From Chitinophagales bacterium (GTDB taxonomy: Bacteria; Bacteroidota; Bacteroidia; Chitinophagales; BACL12), in NCBI GenBank assembly GCA_020636645.1, contig JACJXO010000002.1, forward strand, positions 99,375 through 163,374: 64,000 bases of DNA. Reading direction: 5' to 3'. Both the position numbers and the translations under genes were made by a program. This document shows positions 16,555 to 26,114 of the stretch, piece after piece (position 1 is the first letter of the stretch; each line of letters opens with the position of its first letter). The notes under the pieces are model-generated. The model saw nothing but the letters and a program-made list of their open reading frames with translations. It did no database searches and was not told the origin of the DNA.

Positions 16555-19014
16555 ATGAAACGTATTATTCAACTCGTGGTTATCGCACTGCTGATGTCTT
16601 CGGCAGCGATGGCCCAAACCTACAATATCACCTTCCGGGTGGATATGAATGAAGTAGGTGATGCTTTCACCACACCGGAGGTGAACGGCACCTTCAATGG
16701 CTGGTGCGGTGGCTGTGCGCCAATGTCTGACGGCGATGGCGACGGTATCTGGGAACTCACCATTCCACTCGCAGCCGGATTTTATGAATACAAATTTGCT
16801 TATGATTCCTGGGCAGGCTCTGAGTCTCTGATCCCGGGTAGTTCCTGTACCATCACCACAGGTGAATTCACCAACCGTGCACTGGACGTAACCGGCGATG
16901 CTACCCTCGATGCGGTTTGCTGGGGAAGCTGCCTGAGCTGTTCAGATATCATCACTTATGCGGTAACTTTTTCAGTAGATATGAACGAAGTGGCCGGCCC
17001 TTTCACTACACCTGAAGTGAACGGTAGCTGGGACGGATGGTGCGGTGGTTGTACCCCGCTGTCTGATCCTGATGGCGACGGTATCTGGTCCACTACCAAA
17101 ATGCTGGAACCCGGTTACTATGAATATAAGTTTGCATACGACAGCTGGTCTGGTGATGAGTCTCTGACCCCCGGCGATCCTTGTACAGTTACTACAGACA
17201 TTTTCACCAACAGATTCATCAACGTGTCTGATGATGCAGATCTGGGCGTGGTATGCTGGGCCAGCTGTGAGGCTTGTGAAACCATTGGCCTCGAACAAAT
17301 GGACCTTCCTGTAACATTCGAAGATGCTGGTGTAGATTACGGTGTCATCGGATTTGAAGGCGCTGAAGCTTCTTCCATTGTAACCGATCCTACCGATGCT
17401 TCCAACACAGTCGTGCAGGTCATCAAATCTGCTTCCGCTATGCCCTGGGCAGGTACTACCGTAACCAATGCCGCTGAAGAAGGATTCGCTACACCGATTC
17501 CTTTTACCGCAGAAAATACACAGATGACCGTTCGGGTCTGGAGTCCCGATGCAGGTATTCAGGTACGTCTGAAAGTGGAAGATCACCTGGATCCTACCCA
17601 CTCTGTAGAGACCGAAGCAACCAGCACCGTTGCCGGCGACTGGGAAACGCTGACCTTTAACTTCAGCAATGAAGCTCCCGGTACAGCAGAACTCAACCTG
17701 GCTTATACTTTTGACAAGGCTTCCATCTTCTTCAACTTTGGCGTAGATGGAGCTACTGCAGGTGAAAAGACCTACTATTTTGATGACATCTATTTTGCAG
17801 AAGGCGGTGGCGCTTCTTCCTATACTGTTACTTTCTGGGTGGATATGAATGAGGTGCTGGCACCTTTTACCACTCCTGAAGTGAACGGCAGCTGGGATGG
17901 CTGGTGTGGTGGTTGTACCCCGATGGAAGATCCTGACGGCGACAATATCTGGACCGCTACCAAGGTGCTGGATGCAGGTTATTATGAGTACAAGTTTGCC
18001 TATGACAGCTGGACAGGAAGTGAAACCCTGACTCCCGGCGATCCCTGTACCGTGACCACCGATATCTTTACCAACCGGTTTATCAATGTGTCAGAAGATA
18101 CCGAACTGGGCGTGGTTTGCTGGGAAAGCTGCGAAGCCTGTACCGGAGAAGAACCGGTCATGATCACCTTCTCTGTGAACATGAATACAGTGGCAGATCC
18201 TTTCACTACACCTGAAGTGAACGGCAGCTGGGATGGCTGGTGCGGCGGTTGTACCCCGATGGAAGATCCTGATGGCGACGGTATCTGGACCGCAACCAAA
18301 ATGCTTTCTCCCGGTTACTACGAATACAAGTTTGCTTATGACAGCTGGACAGGACAGGAAAACCTGACCCCCGGCGATCCCTGTACTGTGACCACAGATA
18401 TCTTCACCAACCGCTTCATTGATGCAGTTGCTGATGAAGTGCTGCCAGTGGTTTGCTGGGAAAGCTGTGAGAACTGTGCAGAAGATTGTAACGCACCGGT
18501 TGATGTAGTGGTAACAGATATCACCTCTTCAGGGGCTACCATTTCCTGGACCGGAACATCCGGTGCTGATCAGTACCTGATCACCCTGGCTGATTTTGCA
18601 GCTGGTACCAGCGGTAAACAACGCACAGGTCCTGCAACTACCTTTGTAATAGAGGATATGCTGGCTCCTTCCACTGAATATTCTATTCGTATCAAATCTA
18701 TCTGCTACGACCTCGGTTTGCGTTCAGAACCTTCAGAAACCGTGTATTTCACCACCGCACCTATGCGTTCAGGTGGCGAATTTCACTCTGCAGTGTATCC
18801 GAACCCTACTGCTGGAAATCTGCAGGTACAAACCAACCTCAGCGGCACTGTCATGCTGACCGTAACAGGAATGACCGGTCAGTTGCTGATGAGCACCATT
18901 ATCGAAGCCGGTAGCACTTCTCTTGATCTGAGCATGTTTGCAGATGGTCTGTATATGATCCGTCTGGATAACGGACAGTCTTCAGAGATCTTTACCGTTT
19001 CACTGAACAGATAA
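16555..19014 (+). CDS. T9SS-secreted protein: 2 Cys-repeat domains, then a CBM-like beta-sandwich insert, then 2 more Cys-repeat domains, then Fn3, then a T9SS CTD.
   Basis: Same six-cysteine repeat seen four times. Insert domain (about aa 246-420: DLPVTFEDAG...WAGTT...VWSPDAG...FNFG...YYFDDIYF) resembles galactose-binding-like CBMs. Fn3 (VVVTDITSSGATISWTG). CTD (AVYPNPTAGNLQVQ...). Confidence 0.8.
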   Translation: MKRIIQLVVIALLMSSAAMAQTYNITFRVDMNEVGDAFTTPEVNGTFNGWCGGCAPMSDGDGDGIWELTIPLAAGFYEYKFAYDSWAGSESLIPGSSCTITTGEFTNRALDVTGDATLDAVCWGSCLSCSDIITYAVTFSVDMNEVAGPFTTPEVNGSWDGWCGGCTPLSDPDGDGIWSTTKMLEPGYYEYKFAYDSWSGDESLTPGDPCTVTTDIFTNRFINVSDDADLGVVCWASCEACETIGLEQMDLPVTFEDAGVDYGVIGFEGAEASSIVTDPTDASNTVVQVIKSASAMPWAGTTVTNAAEEGFATPIPFTAENTQMTVRVWSPDAGIQVRLKVEDHLDPTHSVETEATSTVAGDWETLTFNFSNEAPGTAELNLAYTFDKASIFFNFGVDGATAGEKTYYFDDIYFAEGGGASSYTVTFWVDMNEVLAPFTTPEVNGSWDGWCGGCTPMEDPDGDNIWTATKVLDAGYYEYKFAYDSWTGSETLTPGDPCTVTTDIFTNRFINVSEDTELGVVCWESCEACTGEEPVMITFSVNMNTVADPFTTPEVNGSWDGWCGGCTPMEDPDGDGIWTATKMLSPGYYEYKFAYDSWTGQENLTPGDPCTVTTDIFTNRFIDAVADEVLPVVCWESCENCAEDCNAPVDVVVTDITSSGATISWTGTSGADQYLITLADFAAGTSGKQRTGPATTFVIEDMLAPSTEYSIRIKSICYDLGLRSEPSETVYFTTAPMRSGGEFHSAVYPNPTAGNLQVQTNLSGTVMLTVTGMTGQLLMSTIIEAGSTSLDLSMFADGLYMIRLDNGQSSEIFTVSLNR
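16612..17290 (+). repeat. 2 x roughly 340-bp coding repeat units (gene 2, repeats 1-2).
   Basis: Same repeat family as 14968-15975. Confidence 0.7.
17815..18490 (+). repeat. 2 x roughly 338-bp coding repeat units (gene 2, repeats 3-4).
   Basis: Same repeat family. Repeat 3 is nearly identical at protein level to repeat 2 across the insert. Confidence 0.7.
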
Positions 19015-19019
19015 GTAAA

Positions 19020-19049
19020 TTCGGGGGTGCCTGACACCCCCGAATTTTT
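19020..19049 (+). terminator. Intrinsic terminator after gene 2 (TTCGGGGGTG-cctga-CACCCCCGAA-TTTTT).
   Basis: 10-bp stem, 5-nt loop, T5 tail. Confidence 0.7.
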
Positions 19050-19061
19050 AAACACATATAT

Positions 19062-20051
19062 ATGAGAAAACTTAAAACATTATTTCTGGCAGGTCTGTGT
19101 TCTGTTGGCATATTGTCAGCACAGACCTATGATGTGCTCTTCATTGTTGATATGAATGAAGTAGCAGATCCGTTCACCACACCTGAAGTGAATGGCACTT
19201 TCAACGTCTGGTGTGGAGGTTGTGCTCCTATGAGTGATGATAACGGAGACAATATCTGGGAACTGACCATCCCCCTGGATGCAGGTACATATGAATATAA
19301 ATTCGCCTATGACACCTGGACCGGACAGGAATCACTTACACCCGGTGATGAGTGCACCCTGACCACAGATATCTTCACCAACCGATTGCTGGTTGTGTCT
19401 GAAGACATGGAACTGGATACTGTTTGCTGGGGAAGCTGCGATGCTTGTGAAGATGTACTGCCCTCCTATACGGTTACCTTCAGAGTAGATATGAGTCAGG
19501 TAACTGATACCTATACGACACCTGAGGTAAACGGAACATTCAATGACTGGTGCGGTGGTTGTGCTCCTATGGCAGACGATGATGCTGATGATATATGGGT
19601 GCTGGATATCGTGCTGGAGCAAGGCTCCTATGAGTACAAGTTTGCCTATGATGCATGGACAGGTCAGGAAGAACTGACTGAAGGCGATGCCTGTACCATC
19701 ACTACCGATGCATTCACGAACAGGGCGCTTGACGTCAGTTCTGATACGGTACTCACAGCGGTTTGCTGGGGATCATGCGATGAATGTGTGACAATACCTG
19801 AGGCCATTGAAAATGTTACGTCAAACTTGTCTGTATTTCCTAACCCGGCCAGTGAACAGATATTCATTAGTGGTTTGCCTGCTTCCGGAATTGTTCAGCT
19901 GTTTAACAGTCTGGGTCAGCCGGTCCGTTCAGAGCAAATTACATCAGTATCTGGCAGTATTTCTGTTGTAGGACTTTCCGCCGGGGTCTACACCATACAG
20001 GTGCAGGATCAGGACGGTCAAATACAGAGCAGCATTATATTGATACGGTAA
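19062..20051 (+). CDS. T9SS-secreted protein with 2 diverged copies of the six-cysteine repeat domain plus a T9SS CTD.
   Basis: Signal peptide. Two repeats (WCGGCAPMSDDNGDNIW..YEYKFAYD.WTGQE). CTD (LSVFPNPASEQIFISGL...IILIR). Confidence 0.8.
   Translation: MRKLKTLFLAGLCSVGILSAQTYDVLFIVDMNEVADPFTTPEVNGTFNVWCGGCAPMSDDNGDNIWELTIPLDAGTYEYKFAYDTWTGQESLTPGDECTLTTDIFTNRLLVVSEDMELDTVCWGSCDACEDVLPSYTVTFRVDMSQVTDTYTTPEVNGTFNDWCGGCAPMADDDADDIWVLDIVLEQGSYEYKFAYDAWTGQEELTEGDACTITTDAFTNRALDVSSDTVLTAVCWGSCDECVTIPEAIENVTSNLSVFPNPASEQIFISGLPASGIVQLFNSLGQPVRSEQITSVSGSISVVGLSAGVYTIQVQDQDGQIQSSIILIR
19122..19795 (+). repeat. 2 x roughly 337-bp coding repeat units (gene 3).
   Basis: Same family, more diverged. 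Confidence 0.65.
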
Positions 20052-20069
20052 TAACGTTCAGTTTGTTTG

Positions 20070-20097
20070 AAAGACGGCCGGAAGGCCGTCTTTGTTT
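20070..20097 (+). terminator. Intrinsic terminator after gene 3 (AAGACGGCC-ggaa-GGCCGTCTT-TGTTT).
   Basis: 9-bp stem, 4-nt loop, T-rich tail, about 20 bp past the stop. Confidence 0.65.
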
Positions 20098-20443
20098 GGC
20101 GACTATATACCTAATGGGAACAGCTTTGTAAGGCGTTAATATACAGCAATTTACACAGGTAATTAGCTGACCTGATTAGGTTTGTCTAAGAAATTTTTGA
20201 GAATAGCCTAAGTAATTTGTTCGGCTAAGACTGAATTTGAGGCGATTTCAGTTAATGGGGGTTAACTGATTGCGAGCTGTGAAACAATAGTTAACAAGTT
20301 CTAAATACAATTATTCTTGCATTATTGAAACAATCTAGTTTATTTGCAGTTAACTTTGTAAAACTAAGTGGACTTGGGGTCACTCTAAAACTGCCTTAAG
20401 TGGACCGCATGGAATTAATGGAAGAATTTATTGAGGGGCGAAG

Positions 20444-20515
20444 ACCGCATGGTGAGAATCGAACCCACATCTCCAGATTAGCAGTCTGGTGTTCTATCCG
20501 TTGAACTACATGCAG
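20444..20515 (-). tRNA. 72-nt class-I (short variable arm) tRNA whose anticodon loop CUGCUAA reads anticodon GCU. The isotype is anomalous: GCU is Ser, but there is no long variable arm and the acceptor pair is C1:G72.
   Basis: Hand fold of the reverse complement. Acceptor CTGCATG/CATGCGG (one G-U pair). D arm GTTC-AACGGATA-GAAC. Anticodon arm CCAGA-CTGCTAA-TCTGG. Variable loop AGAT. T arm GTGGG-TTCGATT-CTCAC. Discriminator T. Confidence 0.7.
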
Positions 20516-20703
20516 AATAGAAAGTAGGGGGGTCTAAATGATCCCCTTTTTTTCACCCCTTGCTTGTTGGGTGATCCATCTATTCAAATCTTCGCCTCAT
20601 CTTAAGGCACACAAATTTATCGAATTTTTTGTACCTAATCTCTTAAGATGTTTGTTGGAGGGCCCAATTTAAGTCGTGTTAATTCTTCACCAAATTCAAC
20701 TTA

Positions 20704-20913
20704 TTTATGATATTCTGGGGCTTCATACTGCTCCCTCCTGCCTACGGCTGCGCTGACTATGATGTAGTCTTTGCCCACTTCTAAGGCCTTGACGGTGCGC
20801 TCTCCCTTTTCCGGATGGTGTAGGCGTACTTCTGTGAGTTCTGGGTGCGGGGTGTTAAAGGCAGCGTCTATGACCTGCTCAAAGTCTCCGTGGATCTTCA
20901 GCTTCTTTTTCGT
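20704..20913 (-). pseudogene. Orphan 3' gene fragment (about 68 codons, no start codon), high GC, stranded between AT-rich segments. Remnant of a gene disrupted by island insertion.
   Basis: Minus-strand frame ...TKKKLKIHGDFEQVIDAAFNTPHPELTEVRLHHPEKGERTVKALEVGKDYIIVSAAVGRREQYEAPEYHK* bounded upstream by a stop with no ATG. GC is about 55%, against about 35% in the flanks. Confidence 0.45.
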
Positions 20914-20952
20914 ATTTCTTTGGTCGTTCTGCCATTATCTCCAACACTTGAT

Positions 20953-21615
20953 TTATTCAATGTATACCCATGATGGAGGGATTTCATAGCTAATTTCATC
21001 ATTTCCAATAATATTATCCATAATGGAACTGCGAAACTTACCCTCGTTATTCTCCAAACGTTTAGCTTTTTTCCGAACAAATCGATTCAGATCAAAACTG
21101 TTTCTTCTAGGTGGGAAAAAAATTTTTATTCTTTTATTAGGATAGTTTCTCCTTATAAACTCTAACGGTGGTACTAGGTCACTATCTGCAGAAATTAGTA
21201 CAATTAAATCAACATTGTCGAAAACACAGTCTTCAATTAGATTAACTGAAATATTAACATCAGTTCTTTTTTCCTCTCTTAAATCAAACTCCTGGTGGCA
21301 ACCTCCAATAGCATTACATTTAACCGTCTTAGTATAATACTTACCGTAAATCACCCTCAATAAATCGTTATTGACAAATCTGTTCGCATTAAAGAATGTT
21401 GTTTGCCTACTTGCTTTATTTGGATCAAGGGGCATGGCTGTGAAGTATTTCACACATACTAATTCATGAATATTTGGATCTAGAAATGATCTACAAAACC
21501 CCACTAAATCAATCCAATAGTACTGCTGCCAACGGGCATGTATTTTCGCCTTGGCTGTCCTTAAGCCATAGTAAAAATTGAATCCGTCAATATAGAATAT
21601 AGTTCTTAGTTGCAT
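20953..21615 (-). CDS. NYN-domain (PIN-like, LabA/DUF88-type) predicted ribonuclease.
   Basis: IDGFNFYYG...DVNISVNLIEDCVFDNVDLIVLISADSDLVPPLEF: acidic residues on an alternating beta/alpha pattern, typical of NYN. AT-rich codon usage. Confidence 0.6.
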   Translation of the reverse strand: MQLRTIFYIDGFNFYYGLRTAKAKIHARWQQYYWIDLVGFCRSFLDPNIHELVCVKYFTAMPLDPNKASRQTTFFNANRFVNNDLLRVIYGKYYTKTVKCNAIGGCHQEFDLREEKRTDVNISVNLIEDCVFDNVDLIVLISADSDLVPPLEFIRRNYPNKRIKIFFPPRRNSFDLNRFVRKKAKRLENNEGKFRSSIMDNIIGNDEISYEIPPSWVYIE

Positions 21616-21739
21616 AAAAAAACCGCCTGTATGTCGGCGGCAAACTAACCGAGTTACCAGTTAGCGAGGTTATACTGCAAATCTAACGTCCAACTAGACA
21701 AAAACGCAAAAATTTAACACTTATTTTCATACTATTTGC

Positions 21740-22600
21740 ATTTAACTTGCTAATTATCAAGTAATTAAATCAATATTTCTGAGCCGGGCATTGCCTACTC
21801 TCTCCAATACCTTGTCGAAGCGTTCGGTATCTGTGGCATTGCGGGTGTTGTACCTATATTCAAATTCATGGCAGTACTTCTGCAGGTGCTTCGGGCTGAC
21901 ATAATGGTAGATGCCAATAATACCCCTCTTCAACAGGCTGAACGCCCCCTCTATGGTGTTGATATGGACATTACCCCTGACATACTCTCCCCGACCATGT
22001 GCTACGCTGTCCACAAGATAGAGCCTGTGCGATGGCCGATAACCACTGTATTCGTCAGTATGTAGAATAGCCCCTGGCTTGACGTTGGCGAGGACAAACT
22101 CTCTCATATTCTTGGCCAATGCACGTTCTACCTGTAAATACCTGATCTCTCCCTTTCTCTCCAATGCACCCAATACATGCGTTTTCTTGTTCACCCATTT
22201 AGGGCCGTCAGTGTTCGGGTATTCTTTCGGAACTTGCCGTGCTTGTTGCTTTCTTTTCCTCCTATATAGGTTTCATCTAATTCCACGTCTTCGGTCAGGA
22301 GTTCGGCTGCATTTGTTCCTAACATAGTCCTGATGCGGTGCAGAATGAACCAAGCTGTTTTCTGAGTTACTCCCAGGTCACAGCTTAGCTGCAAACTGCT
22401 GATACCCGTCTAAGCCCCTGTCCTTAAACCTTGTCTTGGTCCGGTAATAGTGTTCACTCCCGCAATGCGGACACTCTGGCTTGCCATTCCATCGCTTCAG
22501 CTCCAAATACTCAAAACAAACCCGCTCATTGTGGAAGTGCTTTTGTAGCTGTAATAATGTCTTAAATTTAGTCATGGCTCAGGCTTTTAGTCACAAATAA
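21740..22600 (-). mobile_element. IS1595-family insertion sequence remnant. The transposase is split into three consecutive ORFs by frameshifts. Terminal inverted repeats not identified.
   Basis: ORFs 22378-22575 (Zn-finger CPHCGSEHYY), 22191-22394 (HTH-like) and 21757-22194 (DDE core ...HTDEYSGY...HINTIEGAFSLLKR...) together reconstitute an IS1595/ISXO2-like transposase. Confidence 0.65.
21757..22575 (-). pseudogene. IS1595-family transposase, frameshifted into 3 ORFs.
   Basis: See the mobile_element entry. Adjacent ORFs overlap by 4 and 17 bp in different frames. Confidence 0.6.
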
Positions 22601-22629
22601 ATCTATTCCCAATAAATACCTAAATTACA

Positions 22630-23142
22630 ATGAATGATTTTTACCACTTCATGAGTAGTGGCCATCCAAATGCAGTGCAAATCAATAGAATAATTGACTC
22701 TATCAGGGGTCGCTACATTAGTATTTTCACAATACTTGAAGGATCAATTGATAGAGTAATTGCAGGGTATTATGCTCCAACAAAAACAAAAAGAGATCAT
22801 CTTTTGACAAACCTTCTCGGACACCGATTCTGTTCCTTTGAATTAAAGTCATCTGTTCTAACAGAAATCCTTAAAGACTCAGGAATTGAAGGATATAAAG
22901 CCAAGCTGTCTGGTTTAGCTCAATTAAGAAATGCCCTTGCACATAGACCTATATATGCAATAGGGGAATTTACAGAAGACCCGAACGAACTATTTTACTA
23001 TATACCATCATATCAAATGAATTACGAACACAATTTAAGGTTAGAGTCAATCAAGTATGAGCTAACTGAAGAAAACTTTAATGAGTATAGCGAGAAAACA
23101 TTAGAAATAGCAAAAATGCTAGACCAGTTTGTTTCCAAATAA
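22630..23142 (+). CDS. HEPN-like / Abi-type (AbiD/AbiF-like) hypothetical protein.
   Basis: Helical 170-aa protein with an R-x4-H HEPN-type motif (LRNALAHRP). AT-rich. Lies in a mobile context. Confidence 0.4.
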   Translation: MNDFYHFMSSGHPNAVQINRIIDSIRGRYISIFTILEGSIDRVIAGYYAPTKTKRDHLLTNLLGHRFCSFELKSSVLTEILKDSGIEGYKAKLSGLAQLRNALAHRPIYAIGEFTEDPNELFYYIPSYQMNYEHNLRLESIKYELTEENFNEYSEKTLEIAKMLDQFVSK

Positions 23143-23475
23143 AAAACGGTATCACCTTGCCGCCTTTGGATTTGGTAATACCGTCTCGCTGAAAGCTGAA
23201 TATGCCTATTCCCTTTCAACTCCCCCACAGAGAAAACCTTCTGATAGCCCCCCTGTTCAGAACGAGGACAACAAATGTACCCATTATGTATATAGTTAAT
23301 AAATTATTAGGTGTTCTTCAAATATTTCTTAGATAGACTTAATCTGTTACGGTTGCAACCTCCGAGCATGCTGTATATAAATATCTTGTAAGGCTATTCC
23401 CAATAATGATATAGGTTCGTAAAAGAGAAGAATAAAATTAATATAGTATATTCGCAAAATCTAAATACAGTATAT

Positions 23476-26013
23476 ATGAAAACCAATTGGCTCTTGATAT
23501 TATTGACAATTTGCCATTCTGTTTATGGACAAACAAATTCAATATCAATTAGTGGAACAAACTATGATATTCAAGAGGATCTCTACGGAATCCATATTCA
23601 AAAATATTTTACCAATACATATACTAGCACAAGCTCAACAACATATGTTGGAATGGATCCAGAATTGGCAGAGGAGGGACTAATTGGACTTCAACCAGAA
23701 ATTGTTAGATTTCCTGGAGGCGGAAGTAGCAGATTTATGCATCCGCACCCGTCTTATGGTTCCAGCTACTCTTACGGTTGGAATCTAGTTGAGATATGTA
23801 ATTATTATGCGTATGTAATGGATGATTATTGTAGCTGTAATTGTGAGGAATTAGCTGCTACAGCTAGTGTTGACGGAACTTTTGACGATTTTGATGAGCT
23901 TGACGATTTTTTTTCAGAGATGGGAAGTGTAACTGATTGTTCAGATGCAGCAACTGATATGGAAAACAATGAAGGCGGTAGGTTAAGGGAAGTGATTAGC
24001 AATCAAAATGATGCCGCAAGTCCATATATTGATCAATTTATTACTCTAATTTTGAATATGGAGGATGAGCTTGAGAGAGATGTAGATGTTGTATACTGTG
24101 CAAACATACTTACGTCATCTGCCACGGAAATAGTTGAAACTTTAAATTATCTTATTACTTCGGGGGTTAATGTAGTAGCCGTTGAGCTTGGAAATGAAAC
24201 CTATTCTAACTTTAATGCTCCAGTTTTTAATGATGATATGAATTATAAAGGATTCGAAAATTATTGGGACTATATTAACGGAATTGGCTTGTCAGCGAGT
24301 TGCACTAAGTATGATGAATTAATTGCAAAGCCAAGAAATGGTAACACAGATCATGATTTTATTGATGCCATTAGAAGTACATATTCTTGGGGTATAAATA
24401 TAAAAATTGGAGTGCCAAGTATTGGACATGATGATTTTACCAATGTATTCAGATTTAGTGAGGAAGAGGAGGAGGAAGAGTTTACCCCCGGAACAATGCC
24501 AATGGGTTGCCCTGGAAGACATGGAGATTGGAATGCGGGTATACAGTCAAAAATGAGTGAAACAGTTGAAGTTTCAGGCATTGATTATCCTTCCTTTGAT
24601 GGCGTCGTAATTCACCCTTATTATGCTGACTATGACCTTTTTGATCGAATGGAGGCTATTGTATGTGCAGCTGGGGGTATTGAAGATGATGTACCAGACT
24701 GTGAGGATAATGAAATTCAGCAATTAACTGAGGAATATGATTTTTCGATGGTTGTAGAGGAACTTGATCCTGCATTCGACGGAAACTTGTTATTTACAAC
24801 TTACTTATTTTTAAAGAGAAATATGGAGTTGGCTGGTGTATCCAGTAACGATGGTTATTTTGAGCAGTTTATAAAAGCTATTCAAGATGATTATGGTTTT
24901 TTTGGAGGTGAATATGGAAAGGAACTTTGGACTACAGAATGGAATTATGCAAATCTTTCGGATGTGGTTCCATATGCTGGAGGTCCAAAAGATCTATTTA
25001 GCATATATGGTAATACTCTTTGGCAAGGTTATGTAGTATTTGAATATTTGATTAGGCAGATACAAGCAAATCTATTGTCTATTACAGATGATGATGGTCT
25101 AGGTTTTGATGCAGATTTTTATACTATTTCGACTATACATCATTTTTTGGGAGAATCAAATGTGCACCTTATATCCAATCGTAAGGATAATATTGGTGAT
25201 TATAATGCACCTGTCCTCGAAGATGATGAGTATGTTAGGAGGATTTCATTTTTGTCAATGGCAATGTTGGCACCTATTTTCAATCTTGATTTGAAATACA
25301 CTGCATGTTCATATGGAGGCGTTAACAAAAAGCTTTACTTAACTACATTTAATAAGTCTGGGGAATATTTTGTGTATTATGTTAACTTGAATAATACTGA
25401 TCAAGAAGTAACAATTTCAGGCTTAGATTCATATTATACTCCACCACCTATACCCATGGAATGTCCAACATGTTGGCGTCAACATTACCAGTTAAATTAT
25501 GTAGGTGGGGATGAATGTTATTTAGATAATTGCTATTTGTATAATACAATGGGATCATCATATTTGTTTGATACAGACTTCAACACATTTTATTCAGATC
25601 CTGCGGATATACCATTTACTATACAGCCTGACATAAATAAGGAGAATGTAATCTTGCCTTTGCCGGAGGAGGAAATGTCTGAGGATTTAAGTGTTATTCT
25701 ACCAAAAATGAGTTTCGGATATGTTTATATACCTGTTCATACCTGGGGCACTTTACGAGAAAGTGGTTATACCCAAAAGCTTATAGCATATCCAAATCCA
25801 ACAAGTTCCAATGTGCAAATTGAGTTATCAGATAGTATTTTTGGGGATATTGAAGTGTTTGATAATTTAGGCGCAATAGTTCTTCAATATAGCCCAAATA
25901 CATATGAAACACTCATTAACTTAGACTTGTCTAATTTGGCAAATGGCTTATATCATATTAAAATAGTTTTTAATGATATGGACGTTGAAATGATACCTAT
26001 AATAAAAAATTGA
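23476..26013 (+). CDS. Large AT-rich (horizontally acquired) T9SS-secreted protein. N-terminal region may be clan GH-A-like. Acidic, Cys-containing central region.
   Basis: Signal peptide. VAVELGNETYSNF (GNE motif). Poly-Glu stretch SEEEEEEEF. Canonical T9SS CTD (AYPNPTSSNVQIELSD...IPIIKN). GC is about 33%. Confidence 0.6.
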   Translation: MKTNWLLILLTICHSVYGQTNSISISGTNYDIQEDLYGIHIQKYFTNTYTSTSSTTYVGMDPELAEEGLIGLQPEIVRFPGGGSSRFMHPHPSYGSSYSYGWNLVEICNYYAYVMDDYCSCNCEELAATASVDGTFDDFDELDDFFSEMGSVTDCSDAATDMENNEGGRLREVISNQNDAASPYIDQFITLILNMEDELERDVDVVYCANILTSSATEIVETLNYLITSGVNVVAVELGNETYSNFNAPVFNDDMNYKGFENYWDYINGIGLSASCTKYDELIAKPRNGNTDHDFIDAIRSTYSWGINIKIGVPSIGHDDFTNVFRFSEEEEEEEFTPGTMPMGCPGRHGDWNAGIQSKMSETVEVSGIDYPSFDGVVIHPYYADYDLFDRMEAIVCAAGGIEDDVPDCEDNEIQQLTEEYDFSMVVEELDPAFDGNLLFTTYLFLKRNMELAGVSSNDGYFEQFIKAIQDDYGFFGGEYGKELWTTEWNYANLSDVVPYAGGPKDLFSIYGNTLWQGYVVFEYLIRQIQANLLSITDDDGLGFDADFYTISTIHHFLGESNVHLISNRKDNIGDYNAPVLEDDEYVRRISFLSMAMLAPIFNLDLKYTACSYGGVNKKLYLTTFNKSGEYFVYYVNLNNTDQEVTISGLDSYYTPPPIPMECPTCWRQHYQLNYVGGDECYLDNCYLYNTMGSSYLFDTDFNTFYSDPADIPFTIQPDINKENVILPLPEEEMSEDLSVILPKMSFGYVYIPVHTWGTLRESGYTQKLIAYPNPTSSNVQIELSDSIFGDIEVFDNLGAIVLQYSPNTYETLINLDLSNLANGLYHIKIVFNDMDVEMIPIIKN

Positions 26014-26114
26014 TCGTGCTTGTGATATGGTTCTCAGAGCGAATAAGATTATTTTTGTTAAATTGTAAATTACTCTTTTAATATCGTTATTTTCCTGCTG
26101 CTTACCTTTGCGGG

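What the first reader, a model, noticed from the sequence alone, without database searches (positions are those of the whole stretch)
20100..26050. AT-rich genomic island (about 35% GC against about 52%) carrying nuclease genes, a dead IS and a large T9SS substrate
GC drops sharply after the repeat-gene terminator and recovers at kynU. The interval holds an odd tRNA, a high-GC promoterless gene fragment (20704-20913, a host-gene remnant), a NYN nuclease, a three-piece frameshifted IS1595 transposase, a HEPN/Abi-like protein and an 845-aa secreted protein. A 10-bp copy of the tRNA 3' end (GACCGCATGG, 20402-20411) lies 41 bp from the tRNA. All of this fits horizontally acquired DNA that has been eroded.
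Basis: seen in the sequence. Interest (0 to 1): 0.6.

Follow-up and report, generated by a model that had tools for sequence, protein, structure and literature searches.

The report
Acquired AT-rich island, dead IS
About 6 kb of foreign, AT-rich DNA has replaced a resident secreted-protein gene in an activated-sludge Bacteroidota bacterium; it is an ordinary kind of genomic island, carrying a broken insertion sequence with a nuclease gene nested inside it, a second possible RNase, an arginine-type tRNA with a serine anticodon, and a secreted glycosidase-like protein.

Summary
Window 20102-26088 is the only compositional outlier in 64 kb (37% GC against 49-50%). It lies between a native terminator and the kynU leader.

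Horizontal acquisition is supported. The nearest other species (L008) has one intact 1038-aa BNR/sortilin T9SS gene at this position. It has no tRNA and none of the island genes. One conspecific MAG (L003) still carries a frameshifted remnant of that gene in place of 20524-25246.

- The "high-GC host-gene remnant" is the second ORF of the IS1595-family element. It is intact (97 aa) 10 bp after an intact 319-aa transposase on other contigs. Here it has a 1-nt frameshift and a truncated 3' end.
- The NYN gene (PADLOC HEC-09 family) is an 828-bp AT-rich insertion exactly between the transposase and that ORF.
- The "odd tRNA" has a tRNA-Arg(YCU) body (A20, C35, U36, short variable loop) with G34.
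- No integrase is present, and the island lies 5' of the tRNA, so this is not a classical tRNA-integrated island.
- The HEPN call rests only on an Rx4H motif and weak profile hits.
- The 845-aa protein is a clan GH-A-like T9SS cargo of an undescribed family.

This is an ordinary island with minor curiosities.

The parts
20070..20100 (+). Native intrinsic terminator of the 329-aa CBM/T9SS gene. It marks the left edge of the foreign DNA.
   Evidence: The hairpin GACGGCCGGAAGGCCGTC plus T-run has a counterpart after the orthologous gene in L008.
20102..26088 (.). AT-rich foreign interval (about 37% GC).
   Evidence: Composition and tetranucleotide outlier. Absent from L008. kynU-leader homology to L008 resumes near 26090.
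20102..20227 (.). Left arm of an imperfect (~72-75%) inverted repeat. It starts at the very edge of the foreign DNA.
   Evidence: the repeat finder I1-I3. Local alignment score 97 against 49 +/- 8 (maximum 77) in 500 shuffles. No other match in the window.
20403..20423 (-). Degenerate copy (10/10, then 16/21) of the 3'-terminal 21 nt of the tRNA, 19 nt downstream of it. It looks like an att-type scar.
   Evidence: (D6). The 10-mer occurs only at these two places in 64 kb.
20443..20515 (-). Class-I tRNA with anticodon GCU. The body is that of tRNA-Arg(YCU): A20, C35, U36, U73, 4-5 nt variable loop.
   Evidence: ARAGORN, Rfam and fold results. The nearest annotated phage tRNAs are all tRNA-Arg. 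In viral contigs, the same body pattern with a YCT anticodon gives >=120 hits, against 1 for GCT and 1 for ACT.
20524..25246 (.). Segment that is replaced in one conspecific MAG (L003) by a 2.06-kb, 51% GC, frameshifted remnant (aa ~95-793) of the ancestral BNR/sortilin gene.
   Evidence: blastn and tblastn. This allele was found in one assembly only.
20526..20557 (+). Terminator-like hairpin plus T-run at the polymorphic junction. Role unknown.
   Evidence: No counterpart after the BNR gene of L008.
20695..20935 (-). Decayed accessory ORF of the IS1595-family element. ATG at 20935-20933; +1 frameshift in the A-run 20906-20910; premature stop at 20704-20706. Homology ends at 20695, so the IS right end is missing.
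   Evidence: P0001 (97 aa, 85% identical) lies 10 bp after an intact 319-aa IS1595 transposase on L091-L094. DNA alignments.
20936..21764 (-). 828-bp AT-rich insertion (34% GC) relative to the intact IS, lying exactly between the transposase stop and the accessory-ORF start.
   Evidence: L091 1166-1188 (22 bp) corresponds to window 21764-20936. GC values.
20953..21615 (-). Intact 220-aa NYN-domain protein of the PADLOC HEC-09 family. Motifs IDGFN (9), TDVN (118) and SADSD (142) are present.
   Evidence: Pfam NYN E 1.1e-7. PADLOC HEC-09 E 4.4e-48 over profile positions 3-202 of 203. phrog_7929 E 7e-24. Plasmid relatives at 30-37% identity. Motif positions.
21622..21641 (-). GC-rich hairpin plus T-run immediately upstream of the NYN ATG.
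   Evidence: Function not determined.
21757..22639 (-). IS1595-family transposase pseudogene plus the IS left end. Three reading-frame pieces, a ~110-bp internal deletion (aa 66-101) and one further frameshift. The left-end motif TTAGGTATTTATTGGGAATAG is at 22603-22623.
   Evidence: Pfam Zn_ribbon_IS1595 and DDE_Tnp_IS1595. tblastn with the L091 transposase. DNA homology runs to 22639. Annotated IS1595 relatives.
22630..23142 (+). 170-aa ORFan with an Rx4H motif (RNALAH, residues 100-105), a possible HEPN RNase. Its ATG abuts the IS left end.
   Evidence: Weak hits only: HEPN_RiboL-PSP E 0.022 and RTasHEPN E 0.045. No homologues beyond itself. No PDB hit. The structure model is unusable, pLDDT 35.
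23293..23414 (.). Right arm of the inverted repeat, just upstream of the 845-aa gene. The best copy of the terminal 21-mer is at 23276-23296.
23476..26013 (+). 845-aa T9SS cargo: signal peptide, clan GH-A-like TIM barrel plus beta-sandwich, and a type A C-terminal sorting domain.
   Evidence: Por_Secre_tail and TIGR04183. 88 remote homologues, the best 34% identical. Invariant G239-N240-E241, H380, Y382 and E488. Foldseek matches to GH51, GH79, GH30 and GH86, E 8e-11 to 1e-6.

Best explanation
The interval is a roughly 6-kb patch of horizontally acquired, AT-rich DNA. It occupies the place of an ancestral BNR/sortilin-type T9SS gene between the CBM-repeat genes and kynU in an activated-sludge Bacteroidota species.

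It is a mosaic of at least three layers rather than one integrase-borne element:
1. AT-rich cargo of Bacteroidota type: the 845-aa GH-A-like T9SS enzyme, the 170-aa Rx4H protein, and the tRNA region.
2. An IS1595-family element of higher GC (transposase plus a 97-aa accessory ORF). Its left end landed right against the start of the 170-aa gene.
3. An AT-rich NYN (HEC-09 family) gene cassette, sitting exactly between the transposase and the accessory ORF of that IS, so the IS carried it as a passenger.

The IS is now immobile. The transposase has a deletion and frameshifts, the accessory ORF has a frameshift and a nonsense codon, and the right end is lost. The tRNA is a tRNA-Arg(YCU)-type gene that matches the AGR-rich codon usage of the cargo. 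A substitution at position 34 gives it the anticodon GCU. By bacterial ArgRS and SerRS identity rules it could be arginylated but not serylated, so it is most likely a decaying, redundant copy.

Shown here: composition, absence from the sister species, the BNR remnant in a conspecific, the IS anatomy, and the family assignments.
Inferred: the order of events, the AT-rich donor lineage, expression and RNase activity of NYN and the 170-aa protein, and the charging of the tRNA.
For: Composition and codon usage:
- Only compositional and tetranucleotide outlier in 64 kb. GC3 is 27% against 51%. AGR makes up 33/44 Arg codons in the island against 17/75 in the flanks.

Ancestral state:
- Sister species L008 (kynU 77% identical) has CBM331, an intact 1038-aa BNR/Sortilin T9SS gene, then kynU. 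It has no tRNA.
- None of 80 other kynU neighbourhoods encodes NYN, the 170-aa protein or the 845-aa protein.
- Conspecific L003 carries BNR aa ~95-793 with several frameshifts in place of 20524-25246. Another L003-specific gene (M48 peptidase, 662 aa) is intact, so the frameshifts are not general assembly noise.
- About 20 other conspecific contigs carry the island at 99.9-100% identity.

IS anatomy:
-.

Gene assignments:
- NYN matches HEC-09, E 4.4e-48.
- The 845-aa family, its invariant residues and its fold. Its closest relative sits on a 31% GC contig among other T9SS cargo genes.

tRNA:
- Nearest neighbours and anticodon-pattern counts.
Against: - No donor was identified. The 170-aa and 845-aa proteins have no close relatives.
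- Only one other species shares the synteny, so the ancestral state rests on L008 plus a single MAG, L003.
- L003 shares both AT-rich ends (20052-20523 and 25247-26114) with the window allele. A simple 'one insertion replaced the gene' history does not explain this. It needs either an ancestor carrying both blocks followed by alternative deletions, or recombination between alleles.
- L003 probably comes from a hybrid long-read project, judging by its accession block, so some artefact cannot be excluded.
- No IS terminal repeats or target duplications could be defined.
- HEC-09 gave no phage protection when tested (bioRxiv 10.1101/2024.01.29.577857).
Confidence: 0.8

Rival explanations
1. Classical tRNA-targeted genomic island. 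An integrase-borne element integrated into the 3' end of a resident tRNA gene, and the 10-bp/21-nt repeat is attL/attR.
For: A copy of the tRNA 3' end lies 19 nt downstream of the gene: the 10-mer is unique to these two sites, with 16/21 extended similarity. tRNA-Arg genes are common integration sites (general knowledge).
Against: - No integrase or recombinase in 20052-26114.
- The two repeat copies bracket only ~19-30 nt.
- The island body lies on the 5' side of the tRNA.
- The tRNA is itself in AT-rich DNA and is absent from L008.
- The strain polymorphism starts 8 bp upstream of the tRNA 5' end, not at its 3' end.
Confidence: 0.1
2. Two or more separate acquisitions. A 3.3-kb unit bounded by ~125-bp imperfect terminal inverted repeats (20102-23414) carries the tRNA, the IS with its NYN passenger, and the 170-aa gene. 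It is a mobile or once-invertible module distinct from the 845-aa gene beside it.
For: - The inverted repeat is significant and unique in the window.
- Its left arm starts exactly at the edge of the foreign DNA.
- The 13-mer TTATTGGGAATAG of the IS left end recurs in the right arm.
Against: - No target-site duplication.
- The arms are only ~72-75% identical.
- The right arm is simply the upstream region of the 845-aa gene.
- No inversion was seen in about 20 conspecific contigs.
- No second copy of the unit was found anywhere.
Confidence: 0.2
3. The AT-rich stretch is native, fast-evolving DNA (for example xenogeneic-silencer-like AT-rich cargo genes evolved in place), and the sister species lost it.
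For: The island is fixed in nearly all assemblies of the species.
Against: - L003 retains a remnant of the same BNR gene that L008 has intact at this position.
- GC3 of 27% against 51% and reversed Arg codon preference.
- An IS and a foreign-type tRNA are embedded in it.
- The nearest homologue of the 845-aa gene is in a 31% GC genome.
Confidence: 0.04
4. A working mini defence island. NYN (HEC-09) and the HEPN-like protein are active anti-phage RNases kept by selection, and the IS debris is incidental.
For: - Both ORFs are intact while everything IS-related has decayed.
- NYN keeps the acidic motifs and matches a defence-candidate profile end to end.
- Relatives sit on small mobilizable plasmids and in phage families.
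- The Rx4H motif is present.
Against: - HEC-09 gave no protection in the only test.
- HEPN assignment is not established.
- No Hma or other defence genes nearby.
- Conspecific copies are nearly identical, so no selection signal can be read.
- A terminator-like hairpin sits directly before the NYN ATG.
Confidence: 0.3

Closest known systems
Genomic islands / strain-variable replacement hotspots between conserved core genes
   Same: Compositional deviation, foreign codon usage, a tRNA, an IS, nuclease-type cargo, patchy distribution, and replacement of a resident gene between conserved flanks.
   Different: No integrase. The tRNA is part of the imported DNA rather than the target. Small size (6 kb). 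Nearly fixed in the species.
IS1595 family insertion sequences, including members with passenger genes (ISfinder description, from memory)
   Same: N-terminal Zn-ribbon plus the ISXO2-like DDE domain, and one extra small ORF right after the transposase, as in the intact relatives L091-L094.
   Different: This copy is dead (deletion, frameshifts, right end missing). It carries an AT-rich NYN gene between the transposase and the accessory ORF, which the intact relatives lack. The terminal repeats were not identified.
HEC-09, the NYN-domain candidate defence gene of PADLOC-DB (Payne et al., bioRxiv 10.1101/2024.01.29.577857)
   Same: Full-length profile match (E 4.4e-48), single small protein, conserved acidic residues of the NYN/PIN-like fold.
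   Different: Not embedded in an Hma system; here it sits inside an IS. The family has no demonstrated defence activity.
Clan GH-A glycoside hydrolases with a side beta-sandwich (GH30, GH51, GH79, GH86), secreted through the T9SS
   Same: TIM-barrel plus beta-sandwich model, invariant N-E (acid/base position) and a second invariant Glu (E488) in a TEWN context, signal peptide, and a type A CTD.
   Different: No Pfam or PDB sequence match outside the CTD, <=12% identity to structural matches, moderate model confidence (pLDDT 63). Substrate unknown.
Bacterial tRNA-Arg(UCU/CCU), often carried by phages and islands
   Same: Identical D-arm to a Bacteroides phage tRNA-Arg, A20, C35, U36, A37, A38, class-I shape.
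   Different: G at position 34 makes the anticodon GCU (Ser codons AGY). C1-G72 and U73.

Membership tests
Horizontally acquired genomic island | Base composition and codon usage deviate from the host genome. | tested here: met
   37.4% against 49-50% GC, a tetranucleotide outlier, GC3 27% against 51%.
Horizontally acquired genomic island | Absent from the syntenic site in related genomes. | tested here: met
   L008 has a BNR/sortilin gene there. L003 has a remnant of it. Only one other species shares the synteny.
Horizontally acquired genomic island | Integrase and flanking direct repeats at a tRNA 3' end (classical tRNA-integrated type). | tested here: not met
   No integrase. The repeat copies are 19-30 nt apart, and the island lies 5' of the tRNA.
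IS1595 family | Transposase with Zn_ribbon_IS1595 and DDE_Tnp_IS1595 domains. | tested here: met
   E 4.5e-12 and 1.3e-29. 77-92% identical to an intact 319-aa transposase.
IS1595 family | Intact transposase, terminal inverted repeats and a target-site duplication (a functional IS). | tested here: not met
   Three frame pieces plus a deletion. Homology ends at 20695, before the end of the accessory ORF. No IR or TSD found.
HEC-09 / NYN nuclease | Full-length match to the family profile and the NYN domain. | tested here: met
   PADLOC HEC-09 E 4.4e-48, profile positions 3-202 of 203. Pfam NYN above its cut-off.
HEC-09 / NYN nuclease | Conserved aspartates of the metal-binding pocket. | tested here: inconclusive
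   DGFN, TDVN and SADSD motifs are present. They were not mapped onto a structure or onto MARF1 D358/D426/D452.
HEC-09 / NYN nuclease | Embedded in an Hma or other defence system; gives anti-phage activity. | tested here: not met
   The neighbours are IS parts and an ORFan. Activity cannot be tested here, and it was negative in the original study.
HEPN superfamily | Rx4-6H motif. | tested here: met
   RNALAH at residues 100-105.
HEPN superfamily | Significant profile or fold match to a HEPN family. | tested here: inconclusive
   Only E 0.022 and 0.045. No homologues. No PDB hit. Model pLDDT 35.
T9SS type A cargo | C-terminal Por_Secre_tail / TIGR04183 domain and an N-terminal signal peptide. 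| tested here: met
   E 3.4e-10 and 7.2e-8. The profile also hits solved CTDs. The N-terminus MKTNWLLILLTICHSVYGQ was read from the sequence.
Clan GH-A glycoside hydrolase | (beta/alpha)8 barrel with an N-E acid/base motif and a nucleophile Glu. | tested here: met
   Invariant N240-E241 and E488 in 23 sequences. Foldseek matches to GH51, GH79 and GH30, probability 1.00. Model confidence is moderate.
Clan GH-A glycoside hydrolase | Assignment to a described GH family. | tested here: not met
   No Pfam or NCBIfam match outside the CTD, for the query and for 10 homologues. The PDB profile search hits the CTD only.
tRNA-Ser | Long variable arm (class II), which SerRS needs. | tested here: not met
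   4-5 nt variable loop. Identity rule from PMC9976931.
tRNA-Arg | A20, C35, U/G36 and a class-I body. | tested here: met
   Alignment with five tRNA-Arg genes. Identity set from PMC9976931.
tRNA-Arg | An Arg anticodon (NCG or YCU). | tested here: not met
   The anticodon is GCU.

The most novel reading that the evidence does not exclude
The Arg-bodied tRNA with the serine anticodon GCU may not be debris. It could be a maintained, mobile-element-borne tRNA that ArgRS charges and that reads AGY codons, or that acts as a decoy or target for the neighbouring RNases.

Twelve diverse tRNAs of this type were found. Every locus long enough to read has mobile or defence genes beside the tRNA. One pair (L114/L119) kept GCU through a compensatory T-stem change, while the flanks diverged to about 80% identity.
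Probability: 0.07. Interest if true: 0.8.

Novelty: new member of a known kind. Interest (0 to 1): 0.3.

Why it matters
Mostly for annotation and method.
- A compositional island here is a layered mosaic, with cargo, an IS, and a gene nested in the IS, rather than one element.
- A "high-GC host remnant" inside an island can be the island's own IS.
- A tRNA labelled Ser by its anticodon can be an Arg-type gene.

Biologically, the locus gives three things:
- A natural example of a HEC-09-type NYN gene travelling inside an IS1595 element.
- An unclassified family of clan GH-A-like T9SS enzymes, about 90 members in 1.8 billion representatives.
- A strain-level polymorphism (island versus BNR remnant) in an abundant activated-sludge bacterium, which could be followed in time series.

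Tried and rejected
- Word-index homology searches returned only the proteins themselves, for the 845-aa protein and the 170-aa protein.
- The single-sequence AlphaFold model of the 170-aa protein was unusable, pLDDT 35. phmmer against PDB found nothing. PHROGs gave only E >= 0.2.
- NCBIfam gave no hit for NYN, the 170-aa protein or the fragment.
- Viral-contig scans for NYN and for the IS accessory ORF found no relatives. The accessory ORF is absent from plasmids. A strict tRNA pattern found nothing in viral contigs.
- The E. coli genome search for the tRNA was uninformative.
- The hypothesis that the fragment was a piece of the ancestral BNR gene was rejected: tblastn with BNR finds no remnant anywhere in window 20052-26114.
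- The hypothesis that the hairpin at 20526 is the old BNR terminator was rejected: L008 has no such hairpin.
- IS terminal repeats could not be defined. L091-L094 are the same locus, so they give no independent ends.
- A look-up for more L003-type alleles found only L003 itself. The history of the two alleles therefore stays unresolved.
- A literature search for bacterial Arg-to-Ser anticodon shifts found nothing pertinent.

Full report
OBSERVATION

The GC trough is real and sharp. In 500-nt windows GC falls from about 0.48 at 19500-19999 to 0.39 at 20000-20499. It stays at 0.33-0.42, apart from a bump at 21750-22499, and returns to 0.50 by 26250. Over 20052-26114 GC is 37.4%, against 49-50% on both sides. 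No other 2-kb tile of the 64-kb window is below 0.46. The only tetranucleotide outliers (>2 SD) are the tiles covering 20001-26000.

Every listed feature is present:
- A tRNA at 20443-20515(-) with anticodon GCT.
- An open but start-less frame at 20704-20913(-) at 52% GC.
- A NYN ORF.
- Three IS1595 transposase pieces.
- A 170-aa ORF with RNALAH.
- An 845-aa ORF with a T9SS sorting domain.
- The 10-mer GACCGCATGG at 20403 and 20443, the only two occurrences in the window.

SOURCE AND RELATIVES

Exact-protein look-ups show that the window is identical to GCA_041392945.1 contig JAWKLA010000002.1 (L088, 100% over 17 kb). About twenty further contigs from activated-sludge metagenomes and MAGs carry the same interval at 99.9-100% identity.

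A genome-collection scan with kynU gave one other species with the same gene order, L008 (Bacteroidetes bacterium UBA3022, kynU 77% identical). In L008 the orthologue of the 329-aa CBM gene is followed by a homologous terminator. Next comes one intact 1038-aa BNR/Sortilin-type T9SS gene, and then kynU. L008 has no tRNA there. None of the 80 related kynU neighbourhoods encodes a relative of NYN, the 170-aa protein or the 845-aa protein.

Homology of the window to L008 stops after the terminator at about 20100 and resumes in the kynU leader at about 26090. The foreign DNA is therefore about 20102-26088.

THE ANCESTRAL OCCUPANT AND A STRAIN POLYMORPHISM

One conspecific MAG (L003, GCA_020636635.1) matches the window at 99.76% up to 20523 and at 100% from 25247 onwards. 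In between it has 2.06 kb of 51% GC DNA. tblastn shows that this DNA is the BNR gene of L008 from residue ~95 to ~793, broken by several frameshifts.

Another L003-specific gene, a 662-aa M48 peptidase, is intact. I therefore take the frameshifts as real decay rather than long-read error.

The BNR gene is thus the ancestral occupant in this species too. The puzzle is that L003 shares both AT-rich ends with the window allele: the tRNA block 20052-20523 and the last 256 codons of the 845-aa gene. Remote homologues of the 845-aa protein span the junction (P0004 aligns to residues 26-752). The 845-aa gene is therefore one unit, and the L003 copy is a truncation.

The simplest history is an ancestor that carried both the BNR remnant and the island core, followed by alternative deletions. 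Recombination between alleles is the other option. The coincident junctions are not explained by either. Only one assembly has the L003 allele. It probably comes from a hybrid nanopore/Illumina project, judging from its accession block. This point stays open.

THE "HOST-GENE REMNANT" IS THE SECOND ORF OF THE IS

A search with the 69-residue frame found one protein, P0001 (97 aa, 85% identical). On four contigs P0001 starts 10 bp after an intact 319-aa IS1595-family transposase. P0001 begins MAERSKKYEKKLKI, and the window has ATG-MAERPKKYEK at 20935. One extra A in the run 20906-20910 shifts the frame. A nonsense codon then ends the ORF at 20704, and DNA homology stops at 20695. The last ~55 bp of the ORF and the right end of the IS are therefore gone.

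The transposase matches the intact one in three pieces: aa 2-65, 102-165 and 162-316. Residues 66-101 are deleted.

DNA alignment shows that 22 bp between the transposase stop and the accessory-ORF start in the intact IS correspond to 828 bp in the window (21764-20936). This stretch is 34% GC and contains the whole NYN gene. NYN is therefore nested in the IS as a cassette. Its stop codon lies 17 nt before the accessory ORF's ATG.

The IS left end, with the conserved motif TTAGGTATTTATTGGGAATAG at 22603-22623, reaches to about 22639. It overlaps the ATG (22630) of the 170-aa gene.

THE CARGO PROTEINS

NYN protein:
- It matches the PADLOC model HEC-09 end to end (E 4.4e-48).
- It matches a phage protein family of unknown function (phrog_7929, E 7e-24).
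- It matches NYN proteins on many small mobilizable plasmids at 30-37% identity.
- It keeps the DGFN, TDVN and SADSD motifs.
- HEC-09 was proposed as a defence candidate because it sits inside Hma systems. It gave no protection against the phages tested (bioRxiv 10.1101/2024.01.29.577857).

170-aa protein:
- It has no relatives beyond itself.
- HEPN support is only the Rx4H motif and two weak profile hits, E 0.02-0.05.
- The structure prediction failed.

845-aa protein:
- It has a signal peptide and a type A T9SS domain.
- A full HMMER scan of 1.8 billion representatives found 88 relatives. The best is 34% identical. The ten relatives scanned against Pfam match only the sorting domain.
- An alignment of 23 members has invariant G-N-E (239-241), H380, Y382 and E488.
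- The AlphaFold model (pLDDT 63, pTM 0.67) matches GH51, GH79, GH30 and GH86 structures.
- I read it as a secreted clan GH-A-like glycosidase of an undescribed family.
- Its nearest relative lies on a 31% GC contig between other T9SS cargo genes. This fits an AT-rich Bacteroidota donor.

THE tRNA

It folds as a clean cloverleaf with a 4-5 nt variable loop. It therefore cannot be a bacterial tRNA-Ser, which needs the long arm (PMC9976931).

Its nearest annotated phage tRNAs are all tRNA-Arg with anticodons UCU, CCU or ACG. Its D-arm is identical to that of a Bacteroides phage tRNA-Arg. It has A20, C35 and U36, the bacterial arginine identity set, in which position 34 plays no part.

In viral contigs the same body pattern gives >=120 hits with a YCT anticodon. 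With GCT it gives one hit, and with the control anticodon ACT also one. The window tRNA is therefore best read as a tRNA-Arg(YCU) gene with a position-34 substitution.

This fits the cargo's codon usage: AGR makes up 75% of Arg codons in the island against 23% in the flanks. The degenerate copy of its last 21 nt, 19 nt downstream, looks like a scar of site-specific recombination in an earlier context.

No integrase is present and the island lies on the 5' side of the tRNA. The tRNA is absent from L008. It came with the foreign DNA rather than serving as its target.

OTHER STRUCTURE

A ~125-bp imperfect inverted repeat joins 20102-20227 to 23293-23414. The alignment score is 97, against 49 +/- 8 and a maximum of 77 in 500 shuffles, and there is no other match in the window.

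The left arm begins at the very edge of the foreign DNA. The right arm is the upstream region of the 845-aa gene. The repeat brackets the tRNA, the IS with NYN, and the 170-aa gene.

No target duplication was found, and no inversion appears in any conspecific contig. The repeat may mark a separate module, or it may be two copies of a donor intergenic repeat. I could not decide between these.

VERDICT

The details change in five ways:
- The island is a layered mosaic.
- The "host remnant" belongs to the IS.
- NYN rides inside the IS.
- The tRNA is an Arg-type gene with a Ser anticodon.
- This is not a classical tRNA-integrated island.

It is a new example of a well-known kind of feature.

The one thread with real upside is the Arg-bodied tRNA(GCU). 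Eleven metagenome loci and one viral locus carry such tRNAs. Every locus long enough to read has IS1-like transposases, Fic, AlwI, GmrSD, or relaxase genes next to the tRNA. One pair kept GCU through a compensatory stem change while the flanks fell to about 80% identity. The GCT variant is rare and no more frequent than the ACT control. This points to sporadic mutants of redundant, element-borne tRNA-Arg genes, so I give the functional reading a low probability.

Noticed in passing
L108 3194-3267; L109 3716-3788; L110, L111, L113-L119 (alignment A2): Class-I, Arg-bodied tRNAs with the Ser anticodon GCU recur in 11 metagenome contigs and 1 viral contig of very different GC content. The neighbouring genes are IS1-like transposases (L108, L118), Fic (L118), AlwI endonuclease (L114), GmrSD (L115), and relaxase plus NikA (L109). 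L114 and L119 differ by a compensatory T-stem pair and share only 133 bp around the tRNA.
   Followed up: partly
window 20102-20227 and 23293-23414 (also 23276-23296): A significant ~125-bp imperfect inverted repeat brackets the tRNA, the IS with NYN, and the 170-aa gene. The terminal 21-mer ACTATATACCTAATGGGAACA has a 19/21 inverted copy at 23276-23296. No target duplication, and no inversion in other assemblies.
   Followed up: partly
window 22603-22615 and 23394-23406 (both on the - strand): The 13-mer TTATTGGGAATAG from the conserved left end of the IS occurs exactly twice in 64 kb. The second copy lies inside the right arm of the inverted repeat. It may be a solo IS end.
   Followed up: partly
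window 21622-21641 (-): A GC-rich hairpin plus T-run sits directly in front of the NYN start codon, downstream of a TAGATTTG box that resembles a Bacteroidetes -7 element. It could be a leader or attenuator, or the end of the inserted cassette.
   Followed up: no
L003 12846-14834: The MAG that carries the BNR-remnant allele also has a 662-aa M48 peptidase gene between the 207-aa Ig-like gene and the Band_7 gene. The window lacks this gene. It is a second strain-level indel within 8 kb.
   Followed up: no
window 23476-26013 and P0004-P0091: The 845-aa protein defines a sparse family, 88 hits in 1.8 billion representatives, of 750-1000-aa T9SS proteins. They share invariant GNE...H.Y...E residues and have no Pfam domain apart from the sorting tail. 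This is probably an undescribed clan GH-A glycosidase family.
   Followed up: partly
L001 7316-7415; L002 6279-6918; L090 3463-3562; L097-L099: Several assemblies of the same species have runs of N or short gaps inside the IS, the 170-aa gene, or the upstream region of the 845-aa gene. Three scaffolds call a 786-aa product instead of 845 aa. The island is a recurrent assembly break point, which may hide further strain variation.
   Followed up: no
window 16555-20051 against L003 821-4317: The three tandem CBM48/X25-like T9SS genes contain internal ~340-bp repeats at 80-88% identity. All 11 differences between the window and L003 on the left flank are substitutions. Two of them change residues in the 329-aa protein (A to P and I to V) inside a repeat, which suggests gene conversion between repeats.
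   Followed up: no
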